From the NCBI GenBank assembly GCA_963845865.1, contig CAWJTT010000005.1, positions 11,315-75,314 of the forward strand: a DNA stretch of 64,000 bases, given 5' to 3'. Of this stretch, positions 5,838 through 52,365 are shown one piece after another. The position numbers and the translations under genes were made by a program. This DNA comes from an uncultured Actinomycetes bacterium. GTDB lineage: Bacteria > Actinomycetota > Thermoleophilia > Gaiellales > JALYLC01. Numbering within the stretch: the stretch's first letter is position 1; the number at the start of each line of letters is the position of its first letter. The notes below the pieces were generated by a model. It was not told where the DNA came from. It saw only the letters and a program-made list of their open reading frames with translations, and made no database searches.

Positions 5838-5863
5838 CTCGAGCTCGCGCCGCGGGCGTGCGC

Positions 5864-36429: not shown

Positions 36430-36446
36430 CTAGGCTTGGTCGGGCC

Positions 36447-37880: not shown

Positions 37881-37946
37881 GTCGCCCATGCGCTTGGCGT
37901 CTCATGGAAACACGGCGCCCGCCCACCACTGATCGATGTGGGACTG

Positions 37947-38363: not shown

Positions 38364-38467
38364 GCGCCATCACCTCAAACGCTCGCCCGGACGGATAGAC
38401 AGCACCGGGACGTTACCAGCGCCTCCTGACTCGAGGCCGGACCTCTCGTCGTGGTCAGCCCGCCGCG

Positions 38468-38510
38468 GCCGCCGTTCGCGCCGACGACCTCGCCGTGCGC
38501 GAAGGCGATG
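38468..38510. repeat. left copy of a 43-nt imperfect direct repeat (40/43 identical to 40955..40997)
   Basis: GCCGCCGTTCGCGCCGACGACCTCGCCGtGCGCgAAgGCGATG. On the minus strand it encodes IAFAHGEVVGANGG with no gene attached. Confidence 0.9.
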
Positions 38511-38516
38511 AGCCAG

Positions 38517-38551
38517 TCCGGCGCCCGGCGTGTTGTGCGCCGGGCGCCGGA
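38517..38551 (-). terminator. 14-bp perfect hairpin after the 738-aa gene
   Basis: TCCGGCGCCCGGCG - tgttgtg - CGCCGGGCGCCGGA, 13 nt after the stop at 38564. Confidence 0.6.
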
Positions 38552-38563
38552 CTTGCGGTCAGG

Positions 38564-40780
38564 TCAGCGCACGACGCGCAGCGATCGCGTTGCGGCGAGC
38601 GACTGCAGTCCCTGCGCGTCCTTGGCGGTGACGCGGAGCGTGTATCTGTGCGGTGCGACGTGCTTGAGCGACAGCACGACGGTGAACAGGCCCGCCTTCT
38701 TGCGCGAGACGGTCAGGGCGCGCACGACCTTCTTCCTGGAAAGCACGCTGATCGTGACCTTCGCAGGCTCGGAGAGCTTGAGCTTCAGCTTGAGCAGATG
38801 GCCCTTGGCGAACTGGTGCACGGACACGATGTGCACCTTCGGCTTCGTAGGCTTCGGAGGCTTCGGCGCTGCGATCGTTGTCAACGTCTGATCGGCGCCC
38901 GTGATCGAGCCGAAGTCGCTCGAAGCGACGGCGCGGTAGTGAATCGTGCTCCCGGCGGGCAGGCCCGCGAGAGCGGCGCTGAACGAGGTCGCCGAGGACC
39001 CGACCCCGAGCAGCTGGTCCGGAGTGCTCGAGCCGTATGCGGTCGTCGCACCGAAGTCGAAATGCACCTTGACGCGGGCGCCGCCCGGGTTGACCGTGCC
39101 CGACAGCGTCGCTGCGTGCGTGCTCACGGCCGAGGCAGCGCCAGTCGCGACGTCACTCGGCGCGTAGGCCTGGGCGAACAGGTGTTGAGCTCCGGCGGGG
39201 CCGTCCGCGAACAGGAAGAACGGCGTACCGGCCGCGCCGGCCTGACAGGTGGCTCCATCGGCATTCGTCGGGTTCGCGGTGCAGGTCGACGAGACGGGCG
39301 GGCGGAGGTCGGCGGTGCCCACCTTGGCGACGCCGGTTGGCGTGTCGAGCTTGAAGACCGGATTGGCCGCGCCGCCTTCGAAGTGACCGCTGAACGTGCG
39401 GTGCTGACCGGCGACGTCCTCCTGCCAGGTGATGTACGGAGTGTTTCCAGAGAATGCGATGTCAGGCCGCGAAGCGTCGTTCAGGGTGTTCGAGATCGGC
39501 TGGCCCTGATTGAAGACCTCGAAGTGATCGCCTCCGACCAGGCGCGAGACGAAGATTCCGTGACGTCCCGCACCGATCGTCTCCGACCAGACCACCCACG
39601 GCACCGTCGTGCCGCCCGGCGTGAGCGTGCCTGCCGCGACACGCGGATCCTCGGCGTCGACGGTCGCGTCCTTGTTGAGCGAGCAGGCGCGCTCCGCACC
39701 GGCGCTCGCCAGGCAAGGGCCGAACTGGTTGGCCCCCGAGGTGTCGAGCACGTTGTTCTGCCCGGCCGTGCCATTGCCGACCGCGACCCAGTGGAAACCA
39801 CCGTCCGCGCTGGCGTCCGGAACTGCCTTGGCGGCGAACACGAGCTCGTTGCCGACTCCGTTGAGGCCCGGGTTCTGCTCGTACCAGACGACCCAGGGAA
39901 CCGTGTCCGACGGGCCCGTGAAGGCATCATCGGGCTCGATTCCATCGCGCGTCGGATCGATGCTCAGCGTCGGGTCGCCCGTCGGGGACGAAGCGCCGGT
40001 CGTGGGGTTCAGGCGATCGAGTCCGACCTGAAGCCAGCAGAATCCGTTGACGTTGGCGTTGCCACTCGCGGGCTTCCCGACGCACGGCGTGCCCGGAGCC
40101 GCCTGCTTGACGGCGCGCGAGACGAAGATCTGATTCTTCCCGGTACCTGCGCCGTCGAGTTCCTGCCAGGCCACCCAGGGTACGGGATCATTGCCCGCGA
40201 CGGCGGCCCCGCCGACGACGGCAGGATTCTCCGCGTCGCGAGTGACGTTGATGTTGAGCGACGGTAGCCCGTGGCTCGGCGCGCGGTCCTGACCCGCCGG
40301 CAGCCAGACATTGGCGGCTGCCGAGAAGCGGCTCGCGAAGATCTGCTTCTTGTTGCCGAGGAACGAGTTCGGTTCGTACCACGACACCCACGGCACGGTG
40401 CGGCCCGCCCCGGCGAAGTCGACTGAAGGAGCCTCGGCGTGAACCGTCGGATCGATGTTGAGCGACGCCGGGAACCCTTGCGTCACCCATGCGCCGCCCT
40501 TGAAGGCGCGTACGAAGATTTGCTGCGAGGTGCCGCTCTTCTGCTCGAACGTCGCCCAGGGCACCTGGAGGTTGCCTGCAACCACCGTGCCGCCCTGAAC
40601 GTCGGAGACGCCGGCATCCTGGTTCGGGTCGATGCCGTTGGCGGGGTCGTTGTTGACCTGGGAGCCGTCGGCCGGCAGGCCGACGAAGGCAGCAGTAGCG
40701 GTCGCGGCGAGCACGAGGGCGATCGCCGTCGCCACCGTCGCAAGCAGCGCGTGCCGTCTGTGCGGGACCAATGCCCACAT
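38564..40780 (-). CDS. large secreted protein: six PW-type repeats (putative beta-propeller), an FN3-like TTAYG module and an Ig-like tail
   Basis: ATG 40780 has AAAGGAA 6 nt upstream, and the track starts at TTG 40786. The signal or anchor is ALLATVATAIALVLAATATAAFVG. The repeats are VPWATFEQKSGTSQQIFVRAF, VPWVSWYEPNSFLGNKKQIFASRF, VPWVAWQELDGAGTGKNQIFVSRAV, VPWVVWYEQNPGLNGVGNELVFAAKAV, VPWVVWSETIGAGRHGIFVSRLV and TPYITWQEDVAGQHRTFSGHF. These are followed by LSGTVNPGGARVKVHFDFGATTAYG, a PKPPKPTKPK linker and a Lys-rich beta tail. Confidence 0.8.
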   Translation of the reverse strand: MWALVPHRRHALLATVATAIALVLAATATAAFVGLPADGSQVNNDPANGIDPNQDAGVSDVQGGTVVAGNLQVPWATFEQKSGTSQQIFVRAFKGGAWVTQGFPASLNIDPTVHAEAPSVDFAGAGRTVPWVSWYEPNSFLGNKKQIFASRFSAAANVWLPAGQDRAPSHGLPSLNINVTRDAENPAVVGGAAVAGNDPVPWVAWQELDGAGTGKNQIFVSRAVKQAAPGTPCVGKPASGNANVNGFCWLQVGLDRLNPTTGASSPTGDPTLSIDPTRDGIEPDDAFTGPSDTVPWVVWYEQNPGLNGVGNELVFAAKAVPDASADGGFHWVAVGNGTAGQNNVLDTSGANQFGPCLASAGAERACSLNKDATVDAEDPRVAAGTLTPGGTTVPWVVWSETIGAGRHGIFVSRLVGGDHFEVFNQGQPISNTLNDASRPDIAFSGNTPYITWQEDVAGQHRTFSGHFEGGAANPVFKLDTPTGVAKVGTADLRPPVSSTCTANPTNADGATCQAGAAGTPFFLFADGPAGAQHLFAQAYAPSDVATGAASAVSTHAATLSGTVNPGGARVKVHFDFGATTAYGSSTPDQLLGVGSSATSFSAALAGLPAGSTIHYRAVASSDFGSITGADQTLTTIAAPKPPKPTKPKVHIVSVHQFAKGHLLKLKLKLSEPAKVTISVLSRKKVVRALTVSRKKAGLFTVVLSLKHVAPHRYTLRVTAKDAQGLQSLAATRSLRVVR

Positions 40781-40951
40781 GAGCAATTCCTTTCTCGTGG
40801 TTGACGTGCCAGTCGCAAGGACGCCACGAGCTGCCGCTTATTCCCGCCCCTGTGCAAGAACGCCGGAGACAAGGCCGGCACGGCGCGCCTGTCCGCCTTC
40901 TGAGCGGCTACTGAAGCGAGCACCGAACCCCGTGCCTGACAGCTGGCTGAT

Positions 40952-41251
40952 TCAGCCGCCGTTCGCGCCGACGACCTCGCCGCGCGCAAACGCGATGTGC
41001 ACGGGATAGCCCTCGAGCCGGTCCGGATCGGGCAGCCCGTGCCTGGCCCGCATCGCCCGGAACGGCTCGCCGGCGTGGAAGGCCTCGAAGACCTCCTTCG
41101 TCGGGCAGGTGTCGACGACGATGATCCCGTCGTCCGTGCGCAGGCACAGGTGCAGGATCAAGCCCTCGGCCGGAATCTCGGCGAGCAGTGCGTCGTAGCG
41201 GCGCAGGAGGTCGTCGGGATCTCCTCGCAGGTGCGAGATGGATGCGTGCAT
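40952..41251 (-). CDS. small alpha+beta protein (99 aa), paralogue of 47306..47620, ABM/dimeric-barrel-like
   Basis: ATG 41251 lies 8 nt after the amidase stop. It reads MHASISHLRGDPDDLLRRYDALLAEIPAEGLILHLCLRTDDGIIVVDTC...HIAFARGEVVGANGG. Its last 14 codons form the right copy of the 43-nt repeat (40955..40997). Confidence 0.65.
   Translation of the reverse strand: MHASISHLRGDPDDLLRRYDALLAEIPAEGLILHLCLRTDDGIIVVDTCPTKEVFEAFHAGEPFRAMRARHGLPDPDRLEGYPVHIAFARGEVVGANGG
40955..40997. repeat. right copy of the 43-nt direct repeat
   Basis: GCCGCCGTTCGCGCCGACGACCTCGCCGcGCGCaAAcGCGATG. It forms the 3' end of CDS 40952..41251. Confidence 0.9.
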
Positions 41252-41259
41252 GGCCGTTC

Positions 41260-42697
41260 CTATCGCGTCGTCGTCGGGGTGGGTGACAAGGCGTAGCGAG
41301 GCCAGCCGGCGACCTCCTCGAGCTCCGTCGCCATGGCGAGCAGGAGGTCTTCCCGGCCGGGTGGTCCAACGAGCTGCGCGCCGACCGGGACGCCCCCGGC
41401 GGAGATCCCGAGCGGCACGCTCATCGCCGGCTGGCCCGTGACGTTCCAGATGCGCACGAGCGCGCTGAAGCGCACGGCGTCGTCGGTGACGCCGGCCTGT
41501 GAGCGCATGCCGCCGACCTCGGCGGGCAGCCTGGTCAGGGTGGGCGTGACGAGAACCTCGTCGTCGCCCCAGCCCGCCAGTATGCGCCGGGCGAATGCCC
41601 ACAGGCGCTCGCCCGCCTCGAGATAGTCGACCAGCGGCACGGGCTGCGAGTCGATCAGCCAGGCGCGTGTCGCGGGCTCGAGCCGTTCCGGGTCGGCGCG
41701 GCGGCCGTGCAGGCGCTCGACGACGTGTACCAGGTGCTGCGCGCAGCCCGTCAGGTACGTCGCCCAGCTCGACGGGAACGACTCGTCGTCCCAGTCGGGC
41801 GACCCGCTGCGTACGTCGTGGCCGAGCTCGGCGAGCGTCGCGGCGGCGAGCGATGCCGCGGCCGTCGGCCGCGTCGTCGACCGGCACTCCGAGCGGAGCG
41901 GTGAGCGAGAGGCGGACGGAGAGTCGCTCAGGCCGGATGCGGGCGGCCTCCGCGAACGAGTGCGGGCGAGACGGCGCACCGTGCCGGTCACCCGGCTCGT
42001 AGCCGGCGATCGCGTCCAGCGCGACCGCGGTGTCCCGCACGGTGCGGGTGAGCGCGCCGTCGACGGGCATCCCGCCGGCGATGTCGCCGAAGTCGGGGCC
42101 GATCGAGACGCGGCCGAGCGCGGGCTTCATCCCTACGACGCCGCAGCACGACGCCGGGATGCGAATCGAGCCCCCGAGGTCGCTGCCGTCGGCTATCGCG
42201 ACCATGCCCGAGGCGACTGCCGCGGCGCTGCCGCCCGAGGAGCCGCCGGCCGAGAGCCCCGGGCTCCAGGGGTTGCGGGTGGCTCCGAAGCGCGCGTTCT
42301 CCGTGACCGGGCGAAGACCGAGCTCCGGCGTGTTCGTCTTGCCGACGATGATCGCGCCGGCCTCGCGCAGGCGCCGCACGTGGGCGCTGTCGTGGTCGGC
42401 TATCCAGTCGCCGAACGCGCTGCTCCCCTCGCTGGTCGGGATGCCCTCGGTGGCCGAGAGCAGGTCCTTGATGCCGATGGGCACGCCGCAGAGTGGCCGC
42501 GCGTCGCCGACGCGAACGCGGTCGGCCTGGGCCAGCGCCCGCTCGGCGCAGACGTGAGAGAACGCATTGAGCTCCGGATTGAGCTGCTCGATGCGGAGCA
42601 GCGAGGCCTCGACGAGCTCGCGCGCCGAGAGCTCGCCGGTACGCACGAGGGCTGCCTGCTCGACGGCGCTCAGCTCGAGGACCTCTTCACCGGTCAT
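41260..42697 (-). pseudogene. amidase-signature family amidase with a +1 frame change at about 41860-41866
   Basis: Frame 1 reads MTGEEVLELSAVEQAALV...GIKDLL...GGSSGGSAAAVASG...GGSIRIPAS...LSLTAPLGVPVDDAAD and then becomes nonsense. Frame 2 (track ORF 41260..41991) continues AAASLAAATLAELGHDV...NVTGQPAMSVPLG...VGAQLVGPPGREDLLLAMATELE. Confidence 0.75.
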
Positions 42698-42870
42698 CGC
42701 GGGTCAGTCCCTGCGGGCGACGTCCCGGGGAACTCCTGCGCGCGCTCTGCATCGACGTCGATCACTGCCATCGCCTCCTGTGTTCGCAGGTCGATCGCAG
42801 TGTCTGTGTGCCGCCGCTTGCGCACATGCGTGCCGGTACCCAATTCGCCGGCGGCCGGTACGCATCTTCC

Positions 42871-44484
42871 TCAGGCCAGGCCGTGCGCGTGCGCCCAGGC
42901 GGTCGCCGCGGCGCGCGCGCTGCGGCCGGAGACACCGATCTTGCCGTAGATGTTCTCGACGTGGCGCTCGACAGTGCGTACGCTGAGCACGAGCTCCGAG
43001 GCGATCGCGTCGTTCGATCGTCCCTGCGCGAGGAGGTGGAGGACCTCGCGCTCGCGCGCTGTCAGGAGCGACTGCTCATCCGGCGCCGCTGGAGCAGGAG
43101 CGCCGAGCTCGGCCAGCGCGGAGCGGGCCGCGACAAGAGCTGCATCTGCGGCGTCGAGTCGGCCCTGCGCGCGCAGCACATCTGCCAGATCGAGGCGGGC
43201 CTGCGCAGCCTCGTAGCGAGCACCGCAGGCCGCATAGAGGTCGATGGCATCCTCGAGCGCGCTCCGTGCCGCGGCCGGCTCGCGCTTGGCTTCGACGCGT
43301 CCGCGCGCGAGCAGCGCCGCGGCCCGGAGAGGATCCGTGCCCGCTTCGGCCGCGGTGCGCTCCAGCTCGGCTGCGGCGCTCTCGGCCGTCGGTGAATCGC
43401 CGACGCCCAGGCTGGCCCGCACCTGGAGCTCGAGACCCGGCGCGCGCTCGAAGCGATCCTTCTCCCCGACCCGGCGCAGGTAGCGCTCCGCCTCCTCGAC
43501 CGCCCCCGACGCATCACCACGGTCGAGGCAGAGGGCCGCTCGCACGAGCAACGCCAGGCGGTGCCCCTCCGCCTCCGCCAGCAGTGCACCGGCCTGGTCC
43601 GGCCGGCCCTGCCGGCGGCGCAGCTCCGCAAGGCGCACGAGTCCGTCGGCGACCTTGCGGGGCACGCCGCCGAGATCGCGACATGCGGCGGTGAGCGTCT
43701 GCTCCGCCTCGCTCCACTGCCCGCGCCAGACGAGCAGATCGGCGTAGTGGGTACGGCAGGTCGCGAACATCTCCGCGTCCGCGTAGCGCTCCGAGATCTC
43801 CCCGACGCGGAGGCACCACTCGCCTGCGCGATCGAGATCGCGCACCCGCTGGCAGGCGTCGATCAGGTGGCAGCAGATGACCTCGACCATCCGCACGACC
43901 GCGATCTCGCCCGCGACGGCCGAGGTCGTCGCCTCGTCCAGCAGGCGCATGCCCTCGCGCACCTCGCCTGCGGCGACTTGCGCCAGGCCCTCGAGCGCTC
44001 GGCAGATCATCTCGTAGTCGAGCGATCCCGCCGCGACCGCCGCCGCGACGCCCGCCGCCGCCTGCCGCTGGGCCTCGGCCGGATCGTGGTCGCCGTTGAG
44101 CGCCCGGTTCGCCCGCCAGTACGCAAGTGCCGCGTGCTCCGGCGCAGGGGGCAGTCCCTCCAGCAGATGCCCGGCGCGCTCCAGCCAGCCGTTCGCCTCC
44201 GCCGCGCCGCGAAACTGCGCGCAGTCGAATGCCAGCTCTATGGCCAGCCGCGCCGAGGCCGGCTCGTCGCCTGCCTCACGCGCCAGTCGGTAGGCGCGCT
44301 CGTGCGACGCCAGTGCCGTGGGCCCGTCCATCTGCCAGCGGGCAGCGACGCCGAGGCCCTCGAGTGCCTCGACCGTCTCCTCCGCGGCGAGCGCGGCCTC
44401 GAAGCAGGAGCGCGCCTCGGCCCAGGCGGCGCGCACCAACGCCGCTCGCCCGGCCGGCAGGGAGCTCTCCCCGAGAGCACTCAC
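42871..44484 (-). CDS. LuxR family regulator with a long N-terminal TPR-like sensor region and no ATPase
   Basis: The C-terminal HTH is LTAREREVLHLLAQGRSNDAIASELVLSVRTVERHVENIYGKIG. The start is approximate: GTG 44484 was chosen so the gene does not overlap the divergent gene. Confidence 0.8.
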   Translation of the reverse strand: MSALGESSLPAGRAALVRAAWAEARSCFEAALAAEETVEALEGLGVAARWQMDGPTALASHERAYRLAREAGDEPASARLAIELAFDCAQFRGAAEANGWLERAGHLLEGLPPAPEHAALAYWRANRALNGDHDPAEAQRQAAAGVAAAVAAGSLDYEMICRALEGLAQVAAGEVREGMRLLDEATTSAVAGEIAVVRMVEVICCHLIDACQRVRDLDRAGEWCLRVGEISERYADAEMFATCRTHYADLLVWRGQWSEAEQTLTAACRDLGGVPRKVADGLVRLAELRRRQGRPDQAGALLAEAEGHRLALLVRAALCLDRGDASGAVEEAERYLRRVGEKDRFERAPGLELQVRASLGVGDSPTAESAAAELERTAAEAGTDPLRAAALLARGRVEAKREPAAARSALEDAIDLYAACGARYEAAQARLDLADVLRAQGRLDAADAALVAARSALAELGAPAPAAPDEQSLLTAREREVLHLLAQGRSNDAIASELVLSVRTVERHVENIYGKIGVSGRSARAAATAWAHAHGLA

Positions 44485-44610
44485 GGGCGGAAGCGTACGG
44501 CGAATCCGCGGCAGAGCGACGAGCACAGCGACGGCGGAGCAGGACCGCGAGCGGCGTATACTCGCAACATCCGGTCCACCGCCCTCGAGACCCTGCCGTC
44601 GGGAAGTCGA

Positions 44611-45801
44611 GTGCACGTCATCGGCGCGGGCCCAGTGGGCCTCATGCTGACGGCGCTGTTGCAGTCGATGGAAGGCATCTCCGTTCGCCTCTACGAGAAG
44701 CGACGGGACTACACGCGGACGCGCATGGTCCAGCTCGCGCCGTACCTCGTGGCGGATTCAGTCGAGAGCTACCGCGTGGATCCGATTGATGGAGACAGCA
44801 TCGAGGCGGTCTTCGATCCTCCGGAGCTCGATGAGGGTGTTGCGTTCAGACAGTCGATTCCGCCGGACTTGATGGCCCTTCTTCGCGGCTGGGCCCTGGG
44901 GTTCTGCCGGCTCAATACCATCGAGCGCGCCGTCAGCGATCTGATCGATACGCGCGCGTCGAATGGCGTGCAGCGGATCGCGGCTGTGGTATCGGCGGAG
45001 GAAGCGGTGGCGATGCTCGAGCCGGGTGACGTCCTGGTCGACTGCACGGGCAGCAGGTCGCTGCTTCGAGATCACCTGACGCCCGGCTCCGACGGGGCGA
45101 ACGGCGGCTCGAACACGCTCAAGTTCCGGCTCGAATACGCGCTCGTCATCACCTTCCTGTACGGCCAGAAGTACGACTGCAACGAATACTGCAAGTACTA
45201 CAAGAACATCGAGAACGCACGGTACAAGTTCATTCCGATGGTCCAGCGCACGCATTACGACGGCAGCGTCAGTCACGTGTCGGGAATCGTCAACATCACG
45301 GCCGAGGACTATGAGTCGATGCCGTCCAGATTCGACGGTGAGTGGCTACGAAGCAACCGTCCCGGCGTCGCCCAGTCGATGGATCGCTTCATCGACAAGA
45401 TCAAGCAGGAAACCCAGGGTGAGATACTCGGCGAGCTGGAGATCGTCTCGATACCCCTGGATCTCTACCGGGCCCGGAACGCCACCAGCCGGCAATGGCG
45501 GACAGCAGGCTCCGGTGAGCACCCCTTCACCAGCTCGCCGGTATTCCTCGCGGGCGATTCTGCCATCGGATCGCCGTACTTCCAGTCGATCTCGCTCGGA
45601 TTCGAGTGTGCGATGTACATGGCTGGACTCATTGCCCAGCGCGACATGCCACTTGACGAGATGCTCAATCGGTATGAGCTGCACATCTACAAACAGTGGC
45701 TTCGCGTCTACATGCGCAGCAAGATGATCAAGCACAACAAGGATATTTTCGAGTGCATCGATGACCCCTACGCGGTCCTCGACAAGCTGCACATCTATTA
45801 A
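44611..45801 (+). CDS. FAD/NAD(P)-binding oxidoreductase (group-A flavin monooxygenase-like), atypically low GC
   Basis: GTG 44611 has GGGAAG 4 nt upstream. The Rossmann motif is VHVIGAGPVGLMLTALL...VRLYEKR. VLVDCTGSRSLLRDHL and FLAGDSAIGSPYFQSISLG are present. Single-line hand counts give about 43-48% GC in 45181-45780. Confidence 0.75.
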   Translation: MHVIGAGPVGLMLTALLQSMEGISVRLYEKRRDYTRTRMVQLAPYLVADSVESYRVDPIDGDSIEAVFDPPELDEGVAFRQSIPPDLMALLRGWALGFCRLNTIERAVSDLIDTRASNGVQRIAAVVSAEEAVAMLEPGDVLVDCTGSRSLLRDHLTPGSDGANGGSNTLKFRLEYALVITFLYGQKYDCNEYCKYYKNIENARYKFIPMVQRTHYDGSVSHVSGIVNITAEDYESMPSRFDGEWLRSNRPGVAQSMDRFIDKIKQETQGEILGELEIVSIPLDLYRARNATSRQWRTAGSGEHPFTSSPVFLAGDSAIGSPYFQSISLGFECAMYMAGLIAQRDMPLDEMLNRYELHIYKQWLRVYMRSKMIKHNKDIFECIDDPYAVLDKLHIY

Positions 45802-45838
45802 CGCTCGTCGCTCGTGAAACACCAAGCCGAGGTCTTAC

Positions 45839-46420
45839 ATGCGGAAGCTTCAGAGTCAGGGCGTCCACCACATCACGATCGTCGGTGCCGACCGGCAGAC
45901 GTCGATCGACTTCTGGGAGGGTTTGCTCGGAATGCCCTTCGTGTTCGAGCAGCCGAACCTCGACAACGAGGGTGAGAGCCATCTCTACTTCGAGCCGGGC
46001 GACGGGCGCCTGATCACAGTCTTCACCGACGAGTCGCGCACGCCCGATCCGACGCGCACTCCCACCGATCCGGGCTGCGTCCACCACATCGCCTTTTCGC
46101 TCTCGCAGGCCGTCTTCTACCAGGCGGTGGAGCGGCTCGAGGAGCGCGGGATCTCGCACAGCGGCGTCAAGGATCGCGGCTTCATGGACTCGATCTATTT
46201 CGAGGACCCGCTGGGCCTGACGATCGAGCTGGCGTCGTATCGCTTCGACCCGCCGACGGGGTTCAGCCACTCGCAGGTGCTGCTCGAGGCGCACAGGCTC
46301 CGTGTCGAGCGCGGCGATTACAACATCGACCGGGTGCACCTGGCGGATGCGATCGAGTTGCTGATGACTCGCTCGCGCGAATCGCTCTCCGACGAGAGAG
46401 CATCCAAGAACGCCTACTGA
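45839..46420 (+). CDS. VOC (glyoxalase / bleomycin-resistance / extradiol dioxygenase) family protein
   Basis: GAGG lies 6 nt upstream. The two half-modules are GVHHITIVGADRQTSIDFW and CVHHIAFSLSQ...MDSIYFEDPLGLTIEL. Length is 193 aa. Confidence 0.8.
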   Translation: MRKLQSQGVHHITIVGADRQTSIDFWEGLLGMPFVFEQPNLDNEGESHLYFEPGDGRLITVFTDESRTPDPTRTPTDPGCVHHIAFSLSQAVFYQAVERLEERGISHSGVKDRGFMDSIYFEDPLGLTIELASYRFDPPTGFSHSQVLLEAHRLRVERGDYNIDRVHLADAIELLMTRSRESLSDERASKNAY

Positions 46421-46438
46421 GAAAGCGGAGGCTGCGAG

Positions 46439-47137
46439 ATGGCCACGATGAAGCTCCACGTCCTGAAGCCGAGCGTCAACAACCTCTCGGTCCGCATCTT
46501 CGTGCGGGCCGCCGGGCTCGACGCGGAGGAGGTCGACGTGTGGGGGACGACGACCTCGCCCGAGTTCATGGAGAAGAACCCGGCCCGCCTGACGCCGATG
46601 ATCGAGGAGCCGGGGCTGCCGCGCGCGACGCTCTGGGAGAGCTGCGCGATCATGCAGTACCTCTGCAACAAGTACGACCTGGATCAGTTCTATCCGCGCG
46701 ATCCGGCGCAGCGCGCGATGGTCGACAGCGCGATGTTCTATCTGATCGGAACGCTCTACCCGCTCGTCGCGCGCGCCACGTATCCGGCGCTCAGCTTCCC
46801 GCAGTACCCGGGCGAGGTTGGCACCTCCGACGCCGACGACGCCATGAAGGCCAAGGCGCAGCAGGACGCGGTGGCGGCGATCGCGGAGCCGCTGGACGTG
46901 TACCGGGCGTTCTACATGGACGGCAAGCAGTTCATCGGCGGCGCCTCGCCGTCCATCGCCGACATCCGCCTCGCCGCGACCCTCGAGTTCCTGCAGGCCA
47001 TCGACTACGAGCTCCCGGCCTGGGCCAAGGACTACATGGCGGCGATGGAATCGTCGCTCGGCGAGGCGTACTCCGAACCCGCGGCCGACGTGCGCGGCTA
47101 TATCGCCTACGTCAAGTCTCAGGCGTCCGGAACGTGA
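46439..47137 (+). CDS. glutathione S-transferase family protein
   Basis: GGAGG lies 7 nt upstream. LWESCAIMQYLCNKY and the C-terminal helical domain are present. Length is 232 aa. Confidence 0.8.
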   Translation: MATMKLHVLKPSVNNLSVRIFVRAAGLDAEEVDVWGTTTSPEFMEKNPARLTPMIEEPGLPRATLWESCAIMQYLCNKYDLDQFYPRDPAQRAMVDSAMFYLIGTLYPLVARATYPALSFPQYPGEVGTSDADDAMKAKAQQDAVAAIAEPLDVYRAFYMDGKQFIGGASPSIADIRLAATLEFLQAIDYELPAWAKDYMAAMESSLGEAYSEPAADVRGYIAYVKSQASGT

Positions 47138-47305
47138 GGAACCGCGGCCCGGCTGGACCTGCGTGGCGAGCGCGAGCTCGCAGGCTCTGGCCACCGTTTG
47201 GCGATGCCAATACAGGGGCGCGCCGCGGCGACATCCTAGGCCAGGCGACAGGAGCGAGCTGTCGAGCTGGTGCGCCCGCGCGCACCCATCGATCGCGCGC
47301 TCCGC

Positions 47306-47620
47306 TCAGCGCCCCATCGCGTCGTGCAGCTCGTACCAGCTGTCCCGGGTGGGAGGCGCGAATTCGCCCTCGGCAGCGGAGGCCATCATCGACTCGATTA
47401 TCGGGTTGAGCTGCTCGTCGGTGAACCGCTGTCCCTGCTCGCGGGATTCCCAGACGTCGAAGATGCGGAACACGCCGGCATCGTGATCGAAGCCCGCGGT
47501 GTGGACGATGAGCCCGTCGGGCGCTGCCTTGAGATCGAGCGCCGCGACGACTGCGTCGTAGTTCGCCGTGCTGGCCTCGCCCTCCCGGATCGGGAACTCC
47601 TGGATGTAGGCGATCGTCAT
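47306..47620 (-). CDS. small alpha+beta protein (104 aa), ABM/dimeric-barrel-like
   Basis: GAAAGGAG lies upstream. It shares the pattern YDA[VL]...GLI[VL]H...D.G..[IV].D with 40952..41251. Confidence 0.65.
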   Translation of the reverse strand: MTIAYIQEFPIREGEASTANYDAVVAALDLKAAPDGLIVHTAGFDHDAGVFRIFDVWESREQGQRFTDEQLNPIIESMMASAAEGEFAPPTRDSWYELHDAMGR

Positions 47621-47742
47621 CGTCGACTCCTTTCGTCTCGAGAGCTCCGATCCTAGCGCGAGCGCGTCGCCTGTCGATTCCGGTGGCAGTCGTTCGTCAA
47701 CAGAGCGAACGGTCCCAGGGCTGCGACAGGAAAGGAACGGAC

Positions 47743-48129
47743 ATGCCCGACATCACGGTCATGAGCGTGGATCAGTTCGACTCGCCGAACGGCGGCGGCT
47801 TCTGCCGCGCTCGGGCGGGGCTCGGCGTGCACGCGTTCGGCATGCAGGTCGAGAACTTCCCGCCGCACTTCGAGCACTACCCCGAGCACGACCACTCCGC
47901 AGATGGCCAGGAGGAGGTCTACACGGCTCTCTCCGGAGTTGCGACGTTGCACGTCGGGGGCGAGCAGCATGAGCTCGTGCCCGGCACGTTCGCGCGCGTC
48001 GGCCCCGGCGTCACGCGCCGCATCACGACGGGCGACCAGCCCGTTCAGTTGCTCGCCATCGGCGCGACCCCCGGGCAGCCGTACGTCGCCCCGCCGTTCA
48101 CCGAGAACGGCGCAGCGCTGCCTGGTTGA
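47743..48129 (+). CDS. cupin domain protein
   Basis: ATG 47743 has AAAGGAACGG upstream. EHDHSADGQEEVYTALSGVATLHVGG is present. Length is 128 aa. Confidence 0.75.
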   Translation: MPDITVMSVDQFDSPNGGGFCRARAGLGVHAFGMQVENFPPHFEHYPEHDHSADGQEEVYTALSGVATLHVGGEQHELVPGTFARVGPGVTRRITTGDQPVQLLAIGATPGQPYVAPPFTENGAALPG

Positions 48130-48234
48130 TCACCGCCCGAAGGCCGGCGGGCTTGCCCGCCGGCCCTCGGCGCCGTGACGCCGTCTCCGCCCACCGGCGC
48201 GCGAGGGGACGGCGCCGAGGCGTACGCTCCCGGT

Positions 48235-48966
48235 ATGCCGATGCAGGTGGCGGAGTTGTGGCGCTACCCCGTCAAGTCGCTGCGCGGCCAGCGGCTGGAT
48301 GTCGTGGACGTGGACGAGGCGGGCATCCCCGGCGATCGGCTCGTGCACGTGCGCCAGCAGTCCGGGCGGGTCGTCACCGCTCGCTTCCGGCACAGGCTGC
48401 TCGGCCTCCAGGGATCGCTGGGCGACGACGGTGAGCCACGCATCGAGGGCCAGCCGTGGGACTCGGCCGCCGCGCGGGAGCTCGTGCGCGCGGCCGCCGG
48501 GCCGGGCGTGGAGCTCGTGCGCTACACAGGCGGCGATCACGGTCAGCGCTATGACGTGCTGCCGCTCACGGTCCTGACCACCGGGATGGTCGACGTGCTG
48601 GGCGTCGATCGCAGGCGCTTCCGTCCGAACATCCTGATCGCGGGCACGACAACACTCGAAGAGGCCGGCTGGCCGGGCTACGGCCTGCGCGCGGGCACTG
48701 CCCTCATCGGGGTGCGCAACCGGCGGATGCGCTGCGTGATGACGACATTCGACCCCGACACCCTCGAGCAGGACCTGGGCGTCCTGCAGTGGATCTACCG
48801 CGAGGCCTCGGGCGAGGCGGCTCTCGACTGCTGGGTCGTCGAGCCGGGTCGTATCGCCGAGGGCGACGCCGTCGAGCTCGTCGAGCTGGAGGACGGCGTC
48901 GAGCCGCCGCTCGGCAACGGCACGGAGCCGTTTGTCTGGAGCCGGCGGCGACTCGCGCCGCGCTAG
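48235..48966 (+). CDS. MOSC domain-containing protein
   Basis: The N-terminal barrel carries AELWRYPVKSLRGQ. The MOSC region carries RFRPNILI and NRRMRCVMTTFDPDT. The start is the internal ATG of the track ORF. Confidence 0.8.
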   Translation: MPMQVAELWRYPVKSLRGQRLDVVDVDEAGIPGDRLVHVRQQSGRVVTARFRHRLLGLQGSLGDDGEPRIEGQPWDSAAARELVRAAAGPGVELVRYTGGDHGQRYDVLPLTVLTTGMVDVLGVDRRRFRPNILIAGTTTLEEAGWPGYGLRAGTALIGVRNRRMRCVMTTFDPDTLEQDLGVLQWIYREASGEAALDCWVVEPGRIAEGDAVELVELEDGVEPPLGNGTEPFVWSRRRLAPR

Positions 48967-48968
48967 AG

Positions 48969-49763
48969 CTACTTCTTCTTTTTCTTCTTCGCCGGCGGCA
49001 GCTTCGGGACGCCGAAGCCGTTGGCGACCAGCAGCTTGCGCCCGGCCGGGCTCGTCAGCCGCTTGATGAAGGCCGCCGCGTCGGCGTGGTTCTTCGTGCT
49101 GCTGACGATTGCGATCTGGTAGCGCACGGGCGGCTGCGCCCAGGCGGGCACCGGGATCGTCTTGACCTTGCCTGCGACCGTGAGTGCGTCCGTGACGTAC
49201 ATGAACCCGGCGTCGGCCGTGCCGAGCGCGACCTTGGAGGAGATCGCGTTGACGTTCTGCTCCTGGCTGACGACCTGGGGCAGGACCTTGTTCGTGATGC
49301 CCATGTTGTTGAGCACCTGGCGCGTGTAGGCGCCGATCGGGACCGTGGCCGTACCGATCAGGAGCTTCACGCCCGGGCGCTCGACGTCGTAGATGCTCGT
49401 GATGTTGGCGGGGTTGGAGGCAGGCACCGCGAGCACGAGCTTGTTGGTCGCGAACGTGACGGGCTGCTCGACGAGGCCGGCGTGGTAGAGCGCCTGCGGT
49501 GCGTCGGGGCTGGCGCCGGCGAACACGTCGGCGGGCGCGCCCAGCCGGATCTGCGCGGCGAGCGCGTCGGTGCCGGCGAAGTTGTACTTCTGGCCGCCGT
49601 CGAACTGCGGGAACGCGACGCTCAGCGAGGCGGCGGCGAACACGTTCATCTGCGCCGTGGCTCGGCGGGTGCCTGCAGTCGCGCCCGCGGTGAATGCCGT
49701 GAGCATCGCGATGGACAGGAGCAGCGCGCCGCCGATGCGGCGCAGGCAGGAGATGCGAGTCAT
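48969..49763 (-). CDS. modA: molybdate ABC transporter substrate-binding protein
   Basis: FAAASLSVAF...ADVFAGASPD...VPIGAYTRQVL...GTADAGFMYVTDA is present. An alternative GTG start at 49772 directly abuts the upstream stop. The C-terminus ends in KKKKKK. Confidence 0.85.
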   Translation of the reverse strand: MTRISCLRRIGGALLLSIAMLTAFTAGATAGTRRATAQMNVFAAASLSVAFPQFDGGQKYNFAGTDALAAQIRLGAPADVFAGASPDAPQALYHAGLVEQPVTFATNKLVLAVPASNPANITSIYDVERPGVKLLIGTATVPIGAYTRQVLNNMGITNKVLPQVVSQEQNVNAISSKVALGTADAGFMYVTDALTVAGKVKTIPVPAWAQPPVRYQIAIVSSTKNHADAAAFIKRLTSPAGRKLLVANGFGVPKLPPAKKKKKK

Positions 49764-49772
49764 CGTGGCCAC

Positions 49773-50369
49773 CTAGTAGGAGATGAATTGGGAGAGCTGA
49801 TCGCCGCCGTCTTCGAGGCCGAGCGCGCGCGGTGCGCCATTCGGGAGCGGCGGGCCGCCGGTGAGCACGGAGAGAGCGGAGAAGTGCTGGCCGTCGCCGG
49901 CGACGACGCGTGCGAGCAATTCTGCGACCGTCGGATCGTCGGTCGTCGACGCGGCGCCGATTGCGATTCCGAGCAACATCTCCTCCAGGTCGAGCGCGAA
50001 GTTCGAGGCGTGGTCCAACGACCTGAGCGCGCCGGCCGGGAAGGAGTAGGTGTAGTCGTCGTCGACGGGCGGCGGGTTCAGCAGCGGAGCCAGCAGGCCG
50101 TAGTGCCCCTGCTCCTGACTGCGGATCGCCCGGATGAGGTCCGCGGTGTCACTGCTGTCGACCGCCTTCGGAGTGTTGACCCAACTCGTCAGCCAGTTGA
50201 TGGCAATGCGCTTGCCGACGCACACGATGCGCACGTTCGCGAGATCGGTGATCGAGGGGGCCGCGAGCGCGGGCGCCGCGGCCGTCCCGAGCAGCGCGAA
50301 GACTCCCGCCCCCGTCCCGATTCCCGCGCGCGTGAGCAATGCGCGCCGACTGACTCCCGCTGCACCCAT
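49773..50369 (-). CDS. Tat-exported ferritin-like domain protein
   Basis: ATG 50369 has GGAGA 7 nt upstream. The 10 codons upstream in the track ORF are AT3-rich. The twin-arginine signal is SRRALLTRAGIGTGAGVFALLGTAAAPALA. IRSQEQGHYGLL, ALDLEEMLLGIAIG and AGDGQHFSAL resemble Ferritin_2-type helices. Confidence 0.7.
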   Translation of the reverse strand: MGAAGVSRRALLTRAGIGTGAGVFALLGTAAAPALAAPSITDLANVRIVCVGKRIAINWLTSWVNTPKAVDSSDTADLIRAIRSQEQGHYGLLAPLLNPPPVDDDYTYSFPAGALRSLDHASNFALDLEEMLLGIAIGAASTTDDPTVAELLARVVAGDGQHFSALSVLTGGPPLPNGAPRALGLEDGGDQLSQFISY

Positions 50370-50456
50370 CCGGCTGTCTCCAGTACCTAGGAAAAACATA
50401 AGAAGAGCGCGACGTTATCAAGAATGTGAAGGTTCCTGTCGCACTCGCCCAGAAGC

Positions 50457-51306
50457 TCAGGAGCCGGGCCGGGCCGCTCCGAGGATGAATGCGCCCTCGC
50501 CACCGCGCGCCCTGCCGGAGAGACGCGCGAGCAGCTTGACCAGTATCAGGACGGCCGCACTCACGATCACGAGCAGGGCACCGATGGCGAGCGCAACGTC
50601 GAAACTGAGCTCGAAGTCCTGATAGATCAGCAGCGGCAGCGTCTGCGTGACTGCGCGCAGGTTGCCGGCGAACATGATCGTGGCGCCGAACTCGCCGATG
50701 CCGCGCGCGAATGCCAGGGCGGCGCCCGCGGCGAGGCCGGTCGAGGCGAGCGGGATGCTCATGCTCATGAGCAGGCGCAGCTGGCCCGCGCCGTCGACGC
50801 GAGCGGCGTCGAGGATGTCCTTGTCGAGTACCTCGAACGACGCGATCGCCTGGCGAACGTAGAACGGGCCGGCAACGAAGCAGATCGCCAGCACGACGGC
50901 GGTCGTGGTGAAGACGACGTTGATCTTGAGCGGGTCGAGGATGTCGGAGAGCAGGCCGACGCGGCCCGCGAACGCAGCCAGGAGGCCGATGCCGGCCACG
51001 GTCGGCGGCAGCACCAGCGGGAGCTCCACGAGCGTGATTGCGAGCGCCCGGCCGCGGAAGCGCCGCGTTCCGATGAAGTACGCGGCCGGGGTGCCGAAGA
51101 GCAGGATGACGGCGAGCGCGAGCACGTTGGTGATCGCTGTGAGCACGAGCGCGTCGCGCACGATCGGGTCGTCCAGCTGGTCGATCAGGAGGTGCAGCGG
51201 CACCCGCGCGAAGATCGCCACGATCGGCAGGACGAGAAACGCCGAGCACGGCGACCGTCGCACCGAAGGTCGCCAGCCCGAAGGCGGCGCCGCGGAGGCG
51301 CCTCAT
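50457..51306 (-). CDS. modB: molybdate ABC transporter permease; a full-length N-terminus needs a +1 frame change near 51237-51241
   Basis: LPLVLPPTVAGIGLL and AFARGIGEFGATIMFAGN are present. The track frame starts at GTG 51263 (MRRSPCSAFLVLPIVAIF). A better N-terminal TM, MRRLRGAAFGLATFGATVAVLG, starts at ATG 51306 in the adjacent frame and joins at the TTT run. Confidence 0.8.
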
Positions 51307-51340
51307 GTCACGTCCAGGATCAAGCGAATCCCCCCTGCAT

Positions 51341-51355
51341 CTAGGCAGAACCTAG
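51341..51355. promoter_or_regulatory. CTAGG-cagaa-CCTAG inverted repeat in the modB / regulator divergent region
   Basis: It was read directly. A third CTAGG lies at 51402-51406. Confidence 0.3.
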
Positions 51356-51414
51356 GCGTCGGCGACGATAGCAGCCGACGCGAGCGCTCGTGACGGCTAC
51401 GCTAGGCCCGACGC

Positions 51415-51834
51415 ATGGCTGACTCCGCGCACGAGGACAGCTCGCTCGACGTCGCGCCGACGCGCCTGCGCATCGGCGCGGCGGCCGCCAGTCTGGGTGT
51501 CAGCGTCGACACGCTCCGGCGCTGGGAGAAGGATGGACGGATCCACTTCGAGCGCGTCGGCAACCAGCGCGTGATCTCGAGCGACGAGGTCGAGCGCCTC
51601 CTGCGCGACCGTCCCGCCCGCACGCGCACCTCGAGCGCCCGCAATCGCCTCGAGGGCTCCGTCGTCGCAATCAAGCGGGGGCGGGTGATGAGCCAGATCG
51701 AGCTCGCCTGCGGCCCATTCCGCGTCGTCTCGCTGTTGAGCACCGACTCGCTCGACGATCTCGGCCTCAAGCCCGGCGATGCGGCGATCGCGGTCGTCAA
51801 GGCCACGACCGTGATCGTCGAGCGCGAGGACTAG
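51415..51834 (+). CDS. MerR/excisionase-type HTH fused to a Mop/TOBE molybdate-binding domain (ModE-like regulator)
   Basis: The HTH is LRIGAAAASLGVSVDTLRRWEKDGRI. The Mop domain is SARNRLEGSVVAIKRGRVMSQIELACGPFRVVSLLSTDSLDDLGLKPGDAAIAVVKATTVIVE. Confidence 0.8.
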   Translation: MADSAHEDSSLDVAPTRLRIGAAAASLGVSVDTLRRWEKDGRIHFERVGNQRVISSDEVERLLRDRPARTRTSSARNRLEGSVVAIKRGRVMSQIELACGPFRVVSLLSTDSLDDLGLKPGDAAIAVVKATTVIVERED

Positions 51835-52334
51835 TGGCGGACGCTGTCACGTTCATGCCGATCGGCATCGTGCGCACGCCGTTCGCGACGCACGAGGGGA
51901 TGCCCATCCAGACGGTGGCGGCACGAGGTGTGCAGGGCCGCATCGAGCTCGATCCCGCGTACGTCGCCGGGCTGGCCGACCTCGACGGCTTCACGCATCT
52001 GCACCTGATCACCCACCTGCATCGCACCGGCGCCGCCTCGCTGCGCGTCACCCCGTACCTCGACACGAGCGAGCGCGGAGTCTTCGCGACTCGCTCGCCC
52101 AAGCGCCCGAACGCGATCGGGCTCTCGCTCGTCCGGCTCGTGCAGATCGAGGGTCCGACACTCCACGTCGAGGAGCTCGATCTCCTCGACGGCACCCCGT
52201 TGCTCGACATCAAGCCCTACGTGCCGCCCTTCGACGACCGCGCCGGTGCACGCTACGGCTGGTTCGAGCAGCGCGCGCAGAACGTGCACGCGGTGCGCGC
52301 CGACAGCCGCTTCGAGGAGCCCGGAGCGTCATAG
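51834..52334 (+). CDS. trmO: TsaA/YaeB-type tRNA methyltransferase (TrmO family)
   Basis: IGIVRTPF...EGMPIQ, HLHLITHLH, GVFATRSPKRPNAIGLSLVRL and LDGTPLLDIKPY are present. The GTG overlaps the previous TAG. Confidence 0.8.
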   Translation: MADAVTFMPIGIVRTPFATHEGMPIQTVAARGVQGRIELDPAYVAGLADLDGFTHLHLITHLHRTGAASLRVTPYLDTSERGVFATRSPKRPNAIGLSLVRLVQIEGPTLHVEELDLLDGTPLLDIKPYVPPFDDRAGARYGWFEQRAQNVHAVRADSRFEEPGAS

Positions 52335-52365
52335 CGCGGCGTGCCCGACGCGGTACAAATCGGGG

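What the first reader, a model, noticed from the sequence alone, without database searches (positions are those of the whole stretch)
44611..45801. Strikingly low-GC flavoprotein gene in a greater-than-70% GC genome
Hand counts of lines 45181 and 45721 give about 43% and 48% GC, against 73-82% in core genes. The codons are rich in AAG, TAC, ATC and TTC, and the protein is unusually rich in Lys, Tyr and Asn (KYDCNEYCKYYKNIENARYKFIPM).

The protein keeps the three hallmarks of group-A flavin monooxygenases: GxGxxG followed by an acidic residue, a DCTGSRS segment of the GADG-type, and GDSAIGSPYF of the GD-type. The regions in between match no subfamily I recognise.

It is the first gene downstream of a divergent LuxR-TPR regulator. 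Recent horizontal acquisition from a much lower-GC donor is the simplest reading.
Basis: partly seen in the sequence, partly recalled or inferred. Interest (0 to 1): 0.6.

Follow-up and report, generated by a model that had tools for sequence, protein, structure and literature searches.

The report
Conserved orphan flavoprotein gene, not low-GC import
The GC dip is real, but it comes from the Lys/Tyr/Asn/Ile-rich sequence of a strongly conserved, uncharacterised FAD enzyme that moves between high-GC soil bacteria (with distant cousins in bdelloid rotifers), not from recent import out of a low-GC genome.

Summary
Gene 44611-45801 (+) is a real 396-aa FAD protein. Its GC is 60.5% against 70.8% for the genome, in the lowest 0.2-0.4% of the genome.

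About 78% of the deficit lies in codon positions 1 and 2. GC3 is 0.82, roughly the 10th-29th percentile. Lys, Tyr, Phe and Gln use the host's G/C-ending codons.

Eighty homologues from 63-73% GC soil MAGs show the same signature. Their GC3 tracks the host (r=0.61, slope about 1), while GC1+2 stays at 0.48-0.52. A recent low-GC donor is therefore not supported.

Horizontal transfer is supported:
- The gene is absent from 9 same-genus genomes and present in 8 of 301 genomes of the class.
- It has no conserved neighbourhood.
- It is 77-84% identical to every homologue compared, including across phyla where the RpoB core is 62-70%.
- The tree is star-like.

Pfam covers only the first 37 residues. 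The AlphaFold model matches the PHBH/group-A monooxygenase fold at TM 0.45-0.52. The family carries an invariant CxE-x-CKYY-x-N motif. Its only distant branches are one metagenomic clade (44% identity) and bdelloid rotifer genes (about 30%).

Function is inferred only: an NAD(P)H/FAD monooxygenase acting on an unknown small aromatic or xenobiotic substrate.

The parts
44611..45801 (+). Gene for a 396-aa FAD-binding protein of an uncharacterised PHBH-fold family. GTG is the probable start.
   Evidence: ORF and translation. More than 3000 homologues. dN/dS about 0.15-0.2. AlphaFold pLDDT 81.6 and Foldseek matches to group-A monooxygenases.
44575..44610 (+). In-frame relic of the family's N-terminal extension, encoding STALETLPSGSR. 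The ancestral ATG, 18 codons upstream of the Val, is missing here. This stretch now probably serves as the 5' leader and RBS (GGGAAG).
   Evidence: Upstream in-frame translations of 80 loci. Most begin M-PPQSGSTxLETLPSxGR-VHV, whereas the window has AAYTRNIRSTALETLPSGSR before the GTG.
44623..44697 (+). Rossmann dinucleotide-binding motif G5-A-G-P-V-G10 through E29 (LYEKR). It is followed by YTRTRM, which aligns with the RxR of PHBH-type enzymes.
   Evidence: Pfam FAD_binding_3 and NAD_binding_8 match residues 1-37 only. PDB alignment to 4-hydroxybenzoate 3-monooxygenase covers residues 2-59. The columns are invariant.
45040..45069 (+). D144-C-T146-G147-S-R-S150-L-L-R153, a variant of the 'DG' fingerprint with T in place of the canonical D before the G.
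   Evidence: D144, T146, G147, S150, L152, R153 and D154 are invariant across the family, including the rotifer and 44% branches.
45178..45207 (+). Family-specific motif C190-N-E-Y-C194-K-Y-Y-K-N199. It lies on a loop and short helix between two long strands of the middle-domain sheet. This is the AT-richest stretch of the gene.
   Evidence: C190, E192, C194, K195, Y196 and N199 are invariant. Rotifers have CNELCKYYKN and the 44% branch has CTEHCKYYGN. Secondary structure.
45553..45609 (+). 'GD' flavin-binding fingerprint G315-D-S-A-I-G-S-P-Y-F-Q-S-I-S-L-G-F-E.
   Evidence: G315, D316, G320, P322-S328, G330 and E332 are invariant. The family profile aligns this region to the GD region of ChlE3 and TetX-like monooxygenases.
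45715..45798 (+). Conserved C-terminal helices (RSKMIKHNKD...LDKLHIY).
   Evidence: Mean column conservation is 0.96. I373, N376 and K377 are invariant and the C-terminus I-Y/F is conserved in all branches.
42871..44436 (-). Divergent GerE (LuxR-type) HTH regulator with TPR/MalT-like repeats. It neighbours the flavoprotein only in the window's own lineage.
   Evidence: Pfam GerE, TPR_12 and TPR_MalT. It was not found next to the flavoprotein in any of the 80 other loci. It is present in the 96% relative.
45839..47137 (+). VOC/glyoxalase-fold gene (45839-46420) and GST gene (46439-47137). They lie 37 and 18 nt downstream on the same strand and probably form an operon with the flavoprotein gene here.
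   Evidence: Pfam Glyoxalase and GST_N/GST_C. The pair occurs at 76-80% aa identity in same-family genomes without the flavoprotein. It lies next to the flavoprotein in 3 of 81 loci, in a different order each time.

Best explanation
**What the gene is.** It encodes a member of a small, sequence-isolated family of PHBH-fold (group-A-like) FAD enzymes. The family is under purifying selection and has spread horizontally among high-GC soil bacteria. Most carriers are Thermoleophilia/Gaiellaceae-type Actinomycetota. A few are Vicinamibacteria, a proteobacterial MAG and possibly others.

**Why the GC is low.** The deficit is a protein-composition effect. The conserved sequence is rich in Lys, Tyr, Asn, Ile, Phe, Met, Asp and Glu, whose codons are A/T-rich at positions 1 and 2. 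Position 3 has drifted to each host's G/C preference. The window's lineage acquired the gene from another high-GC bacterium. This happened before the lineage split from relatives that are now 96-99% identical, not recently and not from a low-GC donor.

**Likely mechanism (inferred, not shown).**
- NAD(P)H reduces the FAD.
- O2 forms a C4a-hydroperoxyflavin.
- This oxygenates a small electron-rich aromatic or xenobiotic substrate held over the middle-domain sheet, where the invariant C-x-E-x-C-K-Y-Y-x-N loop lies.
- In this genome the product may pass to the co-oriented VOC-fold enzyme and GST.
For: **Composition**
- GC 0.605 against 0.708. GC1, GC2 and GC3 are 0.60, 0.40 and 0.82.
- 78% of the deficit comes from positions 1+2, and the K/Y/F/Q/H codon choice equals the genome's.
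- Across 80 homologues, gene GC is about 0.62 against flanks of about 0.68.
- GC3 correlates with flank GC (r 0.61, slope 1.06). GC1+2 is flat at 0.48-0.52.

**Selection**
- dN is about 0.1, dS 0.5-1.0 and omega 0.15-0.2.

**Horizontal transfer**
- The gene is in 0 of 9 same-genus genomes, 4 of 41 relatives and 8 of 301 class genomes.
- Synteny with same-genus genomes starts only at about 47656.
- Neighbours differ in nearly every one of 80 loci.
- Identity to the window is 77-84% in every comparison. The RpoB core is 78-85% within the class and 62-70% across phyla.
- Synonymous mismatch is 56-86% of saturation for this gene against about 85-105% for rpoB.
- In a Vicinamibacteria contig, the adjacent acetyl-CoA synthetase is 55% identical to G000's, while the flavoprotein is 77%.
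- The tree is star-like, with other phyla nested inside it.

**Fold and motifs**.

**Residence time**: the same gene order occurs in the 96% and 99% relatives.
Against: - GC3 (0.82) and the CAI-like index are on the low side of the genome (10th-29th percentile), with some excess of GAT, ATT and AAT. A weak residual foreign signal cannot be excluded.
- Four of the non-actinobacterial carriers are on contigs under 10 kb and could be binning errors. Only the Vicinamibacteria (621 kb) and 'proteobacterium' (438 kb) contigs are robust.
- NCBI labels of these MAGs are coarse.
- The Nei-Gojobori dS is distorted by strong codon bias.
- No biochemical evidence exists for any family member. The substrate, the cofactor and even monooxygenase chemistry are inferred.
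- The model's TM-scores to known enzymes are only 0.45-0.52, with RMSD of 7-11 Å.
Confidence: 0.8

Rival explanations
1. One reading: the gene was acquired recently from a donor of much lower GC, and its composition has not yet ameliorated.
For: Overall GC is the lowest among long ORFs. The gene is absent from same-genus genomes. GAT, ATT and AAT are slightly over-used. The only low-GC carriers of the family are bdelloid rotifers at about 31% GC.
Against: GC3 of 0.82 and the codon choice for K/Y/F/Q/H match the host. All close homologues come from 63-73% GC genomes with the same signature. Rotifer genes are only about 30% identical. The 96-99% relatives share the locus.
Confidence: 0.04
2. The gene is an ancient, vertically inherited resident of Thermoleophilia-type actinobacteria that has been lost many times. 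Its high identity reflects only extreme functional constraint.
For: Most carriers are Thermoleophilia/Gaiellaceae-type MAGs. GC3 has equilibrated to each host. Purifying selection is evident.
Against: Identity does not fall with host distance. G021 has RpoB core 85% but flavoprotein 76%, while the Binatia MAG has RpoB 63% but flavoprotein 83%. Synonymous divergence is below saturation where rpoB is saturated. The gene is present in 2.7% of class genomes and in other phyla on long contigs. There is no synteny.
Confidence: 0.08
3. The composition is a frozen relic. On this view the family arose in a low-GC lineage long ago, and purifying selection has since kept the A/T-rich first and second codon positions while it spread through high-GC bacteria. 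This is compatible with the best explanation but puts the ultimate origin in a low-GC genome.
For: FYMINK enrichment is seen in conserved and variable columns alike (0.27, 0.21, 0.24). The deepest branch sits in bdelloid rotifers at 31% GC.
Against: Bdelloids are known recipients of bacterial genes (PMC4632278, PMC11258130). The 44% branch comes from a 61% GC contig. No rooted tree is available. Enzymes with Lys/Tyr/Asn-rich active sites need no such history.
Confidence: 0.15
4. The flavoprotein is the first enzyme of a dedicated (chloro)hydroquinone- or phenol-type catabolic or detoxification operon with the VOC dioxygenase-like protein and the GST, under the LuxR-TPR regulator.
For: The genes are co-oriented with gaps of 37 and 18 nt. 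The VOC-GST pair lies next to the flavoprotein in 3 of 81 loci. An intradiol dioxygenase lies 16 nt downstream in L011/L092. ABM-domain proteins lie upstream in 15 loci.
Against: VOC-GST exists as a pair without the flavoprotein in same-family genomes. The regulator is not a conserved partner. Most loci have unrelated neighbours, such as an AlkZ-like glycosylase, HNH, LtrA, a beta-propeller and transporters. No similarity to PcpB/PnpA-type hydroxylases extends beyond the Rossmann motif.
Confidence: 0.2

Closest known systems
Group A flavoprotein monooxygenases (p-hydroxybenzoate hydroxylase fold; Pfam FAD_binding_3, PF01494), e.g. PHBH, kynurenine 3-monooxygenase, PhzS
   Same: It is a single-component protein of about 400 aa. 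It has GxGxxG followed by an acidic residue at the end of beta-2, an RxR segment after beta-2, a GD motif and a C-terminal helical segment. The predicted fold matches with Foldseek probability 1.0.
   Different: Identity is only 12-15% and TM 0.45-0.52. Pfam and NCBIfam models match residues 1-37 only. The DG motif reads D-C-T-G. The invariant C-x-E-x-C-K-Y-Y-x-N loop and the C-terminal ...LHIY have no counterpart that I know of. No substrate is known.
Antibiotic-inactivating group-A monooxygenases: rifampicin monooxygenase (Rox/RIFMO, 5kox, 6brd) and Tet(X)
   Same: RIFMO is the top structural match and Tet(X) is among the matches. Like them, this is a stand-alone gene. It is patchily distributed, horizontally mobile, and often sits among detoxification or resistance-type neighbours (VOC/bleomycin-resistance fold, GST, AlkZ-like glycosylase, ABM).
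   Different: NCBIfam rif_monoox and tet_monoox_X score 10-14 bits against cut-offs of 750-800. There is no evidence of activity on any drug. The resemblance is in fold and lifestyle only.
Flavin-dependent halogenases (Bmp2, CmlS, PrnA/RebH type)
   Same: The fold is the same (Bmp2 TM 0.51, CmlS 0.49). The D-x-[ST]-G form of the DG motif and the GDxxxxxP...S.G spacing resemble halogenase and geranylgeranyl-reductase-type motifs. That comparison rests on my own knowledge.
   Different: WxWxIP is absent from all 80 members and from the distant branches. There is no conserved Lys between residues 31 and 194. Pfam Trp_halogenase scores only 14 bits, on the Rossmann motif.
PcpB/PcpA/PcpC-like (chloro)hydroquinone pathways (flavin monooxygenase plus VOC-fold dioxygenase plus GST)
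   Same: The window's gene order of monooxygenase-like, VOC-fold and GST genes is the same kind of trio.
   Different: The association is not conserved in the family. The VOC-GST pair pre-exists without the flavoprotein in relatives. There is no sequence relationship to PcpB.

Membership tests
Group A flavoprotein monooxygenases (PHBH fold) | N-terminal beta-alpha-beta GxGxxG with an acidic residue at the end of beta-2 | tested here: met
   G5-A-G-P-V-G10 and E29, invariant in the family. Pfam FAD_binding_3 scores 25.8 bits against a cut-off of 22, on residues 1-37.
Group A flavoprotein monooxygenases (PHBH fold) | DG fingerprint (xDGxxSxxR), which contacts FAD and NAD(P)H | tested here: inconclusive
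   The sequence reads V-D144-C-T146-G147-S-R-S150-L-L-R153. The G, S and R spacing fits, but Thr replaces the Asp before the Gly and an Asp lies two residues earlier.
Group A flavoprotein monooxygenases (PHBH fold) | GD fingerprint binding the flavin ribityl and pyrophosphate | tested here: met
   LAG315-D316-SAIGSPYFQSISLG. The profile aligns it to the GD region of ChlE3 and TetX-like enzymes.
Group A flavoprotein monooxygenases (PHBH fold) | Two-domain PHBH fold without a separate NAD(P)H domain | tested here: met
   The AlphaFold model (pLDDT 81.6, pTM 0.80) gives 334 PDB matches at E<=0.001. All 50 best listed matches are PHBH-fold flavoenzymes, at probability 1.0 and TM 0.41-0.52.
Group A flavoprotein monooxygenases (PHBH fold) | Full-length match to a curated family model | tested here: not met
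   Pfam, NCBIfam and PDB sequence or profile searches match only residues 1-37 or 1-72, plus a weak match at the GD region.
Group A flavoprotein monooxygenases (PHBH fold) | NAD(P)H-dependent substrate oxygenation via C4a-hydroperoxyflavin | not testable with these tools
   This needs purified protein.
Flavin-dependent halogenases | WxWxIP motif and a catalytic Lys above the flavin | tested here: not met
   0 of 80 members and none of the distant branches have W.W.IP. There is no conserved Lys between K30 and K195.
Known antibiotic-inactivating monooxygenases (Rox, Tet(X)) | Score above the NCBIfam cut-off for rif_monoox or tet_monoox_X | tested here: not met
   The scores are 10.3 and 14.4 bits against cut-offs of 800 and 750.
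Recently transferred gene from a low-GC donor | Atypical third-position composition and codon usage, with closest relatives in low-GC genomes | tested here: not met
   GC3 is 0.82 and the CAI-like index is at the 11th percentile. The closest relatives all come from 63-73% GC contigs.

The most novel reading that the evidence does not exclude
This is a previously undescribed flavoenzyme family that no curated model recognises beyond the Rossmann motif. Its invariant Cys-x3-Cys/KYYKN loop would mark a new substrate-binding or redox feature. It acts on a widespread soil natural product or toxin, for example as a stand-alone detoxifying or resistance monooxygenase. That role would explain why one tightly conserved gene has been passed between unrelated soil bacterial phyla and has a distant, expanded branch in bdelloid rotifers.
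Probability: 0.25. Interest if true: 0.65.

Novelty: new variant of a known kind. Interest (0 to 1): 0.4.

Why it matters
**Method.** A striking GC dip can be wholly a protein-composition effect. Codon-position analysis separates this from recent transfer.

**The family.**
- It has more than 3000 sequence clusters in soil metagenomes, but almost no diversity. One cluster sits at 74% identity or more, and the only other full-length branches found are one at 44% and one at about 30%.
- It has no curated model and no characterised member.
- It is similar across phyla to a degree that exceeds the RpoB core.
- It has a branch in bdelloid rotifers.

That pattern suggests a specific, portable and selectively valuable activity in soil. 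The family is a cheap target for enzymology. If it does act as a resistance or detoxification enzyme, it would belong in resistome surveys.

Tried and rejected
- **Sequence searches.** Pfam, NCBIfam and PADLOC scans and PDB sequence and profile searches gave only Rossmann-motif matches.
- **Non-coding signals.** Rfam and promoter/terminator scans of 43000-48000 found no RNA-family match, no terminator-like site and only two promoter-like sites at 47397-47677, outside the flavoprotein gene and its upstream gap.
- **Literature.** Full-text searches for the motif strings CKYYKN and GSPYFQSIS found no paper. Source annotations give only 'UbiH-like FAD-dependent oxidoreductase' or 'hypothetical'.
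- **Halogenase.** Rejected because WxWxIP and the catalytic Lys are missing.
- **Integron-cassette-like mobility.** Considered because of the shuffled small neighbours. Rejected because gaps to downstream genes are as short as 2-22 nt, leaving no room for an attC-like site.
- **RpoB comparison error.** My first comparison used an off-frame 951-aa ORF and gave identities that were too low. I redid it with the true frames.
- **Apparent divergent family members.** Many in the 50%-cluster library are frameshifted translations of ordinary members.
- **Neighbour tally.** A Pfam tally of all 150 neighbours through the alignment route was abandoned as impractical.

Full report
**1. Observation**

The ORF 44611-45801 (+) encodes 396 residues with the quoted motifs.

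The whole gene is 60.5% GC against 70.8% for the 5.2-Mb genome. That is the 0.4th percentile of 1191-nt windows, and the lowest of 1473 long reference ORFs. The dip is therefore real, though smaller than the hand counts suggest.

By codon position, GC1 is 0.60, GC2 is 0.40 and GC3 is 0.82. The reference ORFs average 0.72, 0.52 and 0.885. So 78% of the deficit sits in positions 1 and 2.

GC3 is at about the 10th percentile of a strict set and the 29th percentile of all ORFs. A CAI-like index is at the 11th percentile. Lys is 92% AAG, Tyr 86% TAC and Phe 100% TTC, as in the genome. Only GAT, ATT and AAT are somewhat over-used.

FYMINK residues make up 25% of the protein against about 11% genome-wide. 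The two AT-rich lines fall on two of the family's most conserved segments.

**2. Homologues share the signature**

A search of 5.8 billion proteins gave 3133 hits. The best 120 are all 81-99% identical.

Eighty loci from species-representative genomes are mostly soil MAGs labelled Thermoleophilia, Gaiellaceae or 'Actinomycetes'. They have gene GC of about 0.62 against flanks of about 0.68, GC2 of about 0.39 and GC3 of about 0.83.

Across loci, GC3 follows flank GC (r = 0.61, slope 1.06). GC1+2 stays within 0.48-0.52. Third positions have adapted to each host while first and second positions are held by selection.

**3. The gene is nevertheless not a vertical resident**

*Distribution*
- It is absent from 9 same-genus and 4 same-family genomes.
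- It is present in 4 of 41 relatives and in 8 of 301 class genomes, spanning 6 of 106 genera.

*Local synteny*
- DNA synteny with same-genus genomes begins only at about 47656.
- Within the stretch compared (window 36000-54000), the part left of about 47650 is lineage-specific.
- The VOC-GST pair occurs elsewhere in same-family genomes without the flavoprotein or the regulator.

*Neighbourhood in other carriers*
- Across 80 other loci the neighbourhood differs almost every time.
- The only recurrent neighbours are small: ABM-domain proteins upstream (15 loci), two ABM-like 90-aa families, a 100-aa Cys-rich protein, a convergent two-repeat membrane protein (9 loci), a canonical FAD_binding_3 enzyme, and AlkZ-like glycosylases.

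*Comparison with RpoB*
- Identity to the window is 77-84% in every comparison.
- The RpoB core of the same genomes is 78-85% within the class and 62-70% in other phyla.
- Closer hosts are not closer in the flavoprotein.
- At identical residues, synonymous codon mismatch is 56-86% of its saturation value for the flavoprotein but about 85-105% for rpoB.

*Cross-phylum example*
- In a 621-kb Vicinamibacteria contig, the adjacent acetyl-CoA synthetase is 55% identical to G000's, while the flavoprotein is 77%.

*Tree and selection*
- The tree is star-like with non-actinobacterial members nested inside it.
- Nei-Gojobori dN is about 0.1, dS 0.5-1.0 and omega 0.15-0.2. This is ordinary purifying selection on a family that radiated later than its hosts.

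*Residence in this lineage*
- A 96% relative and a 99% contig have the same regulator-flavoprotein-VOC-GST order. The gene has been in this lineage for some time.

**4. What the protein is**

Pfam, NCBIfam and PDB sequence searches see only the Rossmann motif. A family profile adds a weak match at the GD region.

In 1.84 billion 50%-identity representatives there are only 431 hits. Most are fragments or frameshifted versions of one cluster. The only other full-length branches are at 44% and 32% identity.

The 32% branch belongs to bdelloid rotifers (Adineta and Rotaria), with many paralogues. One copy lies on a 15-Mb Adineta vaga chromosome beside a eukaryotic ABC transporter, at 31.7% GC.

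An AlphaFold model (pLDDT 81.6, pTM 0.80) matches group-A monooxygenases. These include rifampicin monooxygenase, KMO, AlpK, MICAL, PhzS, Bmp2, TetX and CmlS, at probability 1.0, TM 0.41-0.52 and 12-15% identity.

Invariant features across all branches:
- GxGxxG...E29-K-R
- R36/R38
- D144-x-T-G-x-x-S-x-L-R-D
- C190-x-E-x-C-K-Y-Y-x-N
- I-P209
- H222
- P-L-x-x-Y-R-A
- G-D316-...-G-x-P-Y-F-Q-S-I-S-x-G-x-E
- N376-K
- a C-terminal I-Y/F

Halogenase motifs are absent.

**5. Mechanism**

Shown: the FAD-binding motifs and the PHBH-type fold.

Inferred: NAD(P)H-driven formation of a flavin hydroperoxide and oxygenation of a small aromatic or xenobiotic substrate. The Cys/Lys/Tyr loop between the long sheet strands would line the pocket.

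Weak contextual support comes from three observations:
- co-orientation with the VOC-fold and GST genes in the window;
- an intradiol dioxygenase 16 nt downstream in one relative;
- ABM-domain partners in 15 loci.

The stand-alone, mobile lifestyle among detoxification-type neighbours, together with the top structural match to rifampicin monooxygenase, make a detoxifying or resistance role a reasonable but untested guess.

**6. Start codon**

Most homologues start at an ATG 18 codons upstream (MPPQSGSTxLETLPSxGR-VHV). The window keeps in-frame STALETLPSGSR but has no start codon at that position. GTG 44611, preceded by GGGAAG, is therefore the likely start.

**7. Verdict**

The gene is a horizontally spread, conserved member of an uncharacterised group-A-like flavoenzyme family. 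It was acquired from other high-GC soil bacteria.

Interest is moderate. The composition story is ordinary. The family's isolation, its cross-phylum identity and its rotifer branch make it worth an enzymologist's look.

Noticed in passing
G000 contigs C21:39224-41821 and C2:27321-29919 (loci L094, L095): A 2.6-kb segment is duplicated at 98.7% identity. It carries a truncated, frameshifted 3' end of a second flavoprotein copy (residues about 293-396, 72-73% identical to the window's). It also carries the convergent two-repeat membrane-protein gene that sits next to intact copies in 9 other genomes. So the genome took up this family at least twice, and one copy decayed and was duplicated.
   Followed up: partly
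G000 contig C23:7778-11100 (locus L111): The essential rpoB gene is split over at least three reading frames (open frames of 951, 528 and 394 aa). This points to indel errors in the assembly. Frameshift-type findings elsewhere in this genome, such as the amidase at about 41860 and modB at about 51237, should be read with that in mind.
   Followed up: partly
window 36000-47650: This stretch has no synteny with same-genus genomes. Conserved order (104-aa gene, cupin, MOSC, mod genes) begins at about 47656. A 99%-identical contig (L091) has an extra ~6.5 kb inserted right after the GST gene, and a 96% relative (L133) has a SpoIIAA-like gene there. The site after GST looks like a hot spot for insertions.
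   Followed up: partly
L132 (Adineta vaga chromosome CP075496.1, 8884526-8898465): A bdelloid rotifer homologue (about 30% identity, single exon over the conserved region) is annotated as a 609-aa protein. It lies next to an ABCG-type transporter and a different FAD_binding_3 gene. Several Adineta and Rotaria species have multiple paralogues.
   Followed up: partly
L012, L020, L023, L024, L029, L035, L047, L072 (about 5500-5930), with related copies 320-520 nt upstream in L026, L027, L039, L040, L055, L057 and L085: A 100-aa ABM-domain protein (MTSTIALVRHRVADFDAWKKVYDGF...) recurs upstream of the flavoprotein on the same strand. It is itself very conserved between genomes. Two other ~90-aa families with a similar N-terminal pattern (MPKVVITHAVxDIDRWL, MPTVMAYHDVKDKDHWL) also recur beside the gene.
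   Followed up: partly
G037:C5:74881-76065 and G263:C9:166765-167955: The flavoprotein copies in these two genomes of the same order are interrupted. The G037 copy is spread over three frames with a TGA. The G263 copy has an in-frame TGA. These are either pseudogenes or long-read assembly errors.
   Followed up: no
L078 (Anaerolineae MAG contig, 6.4 kb): Here the flavoprotein gene (56% GC, GC3 0.73) is much more GC-rich than its flanks (45.5%). That is the reverse of the window's situation. It suggests recent transfer into a lower-GC host, or a chimeric or mis-binned contig.
   Followed up: no
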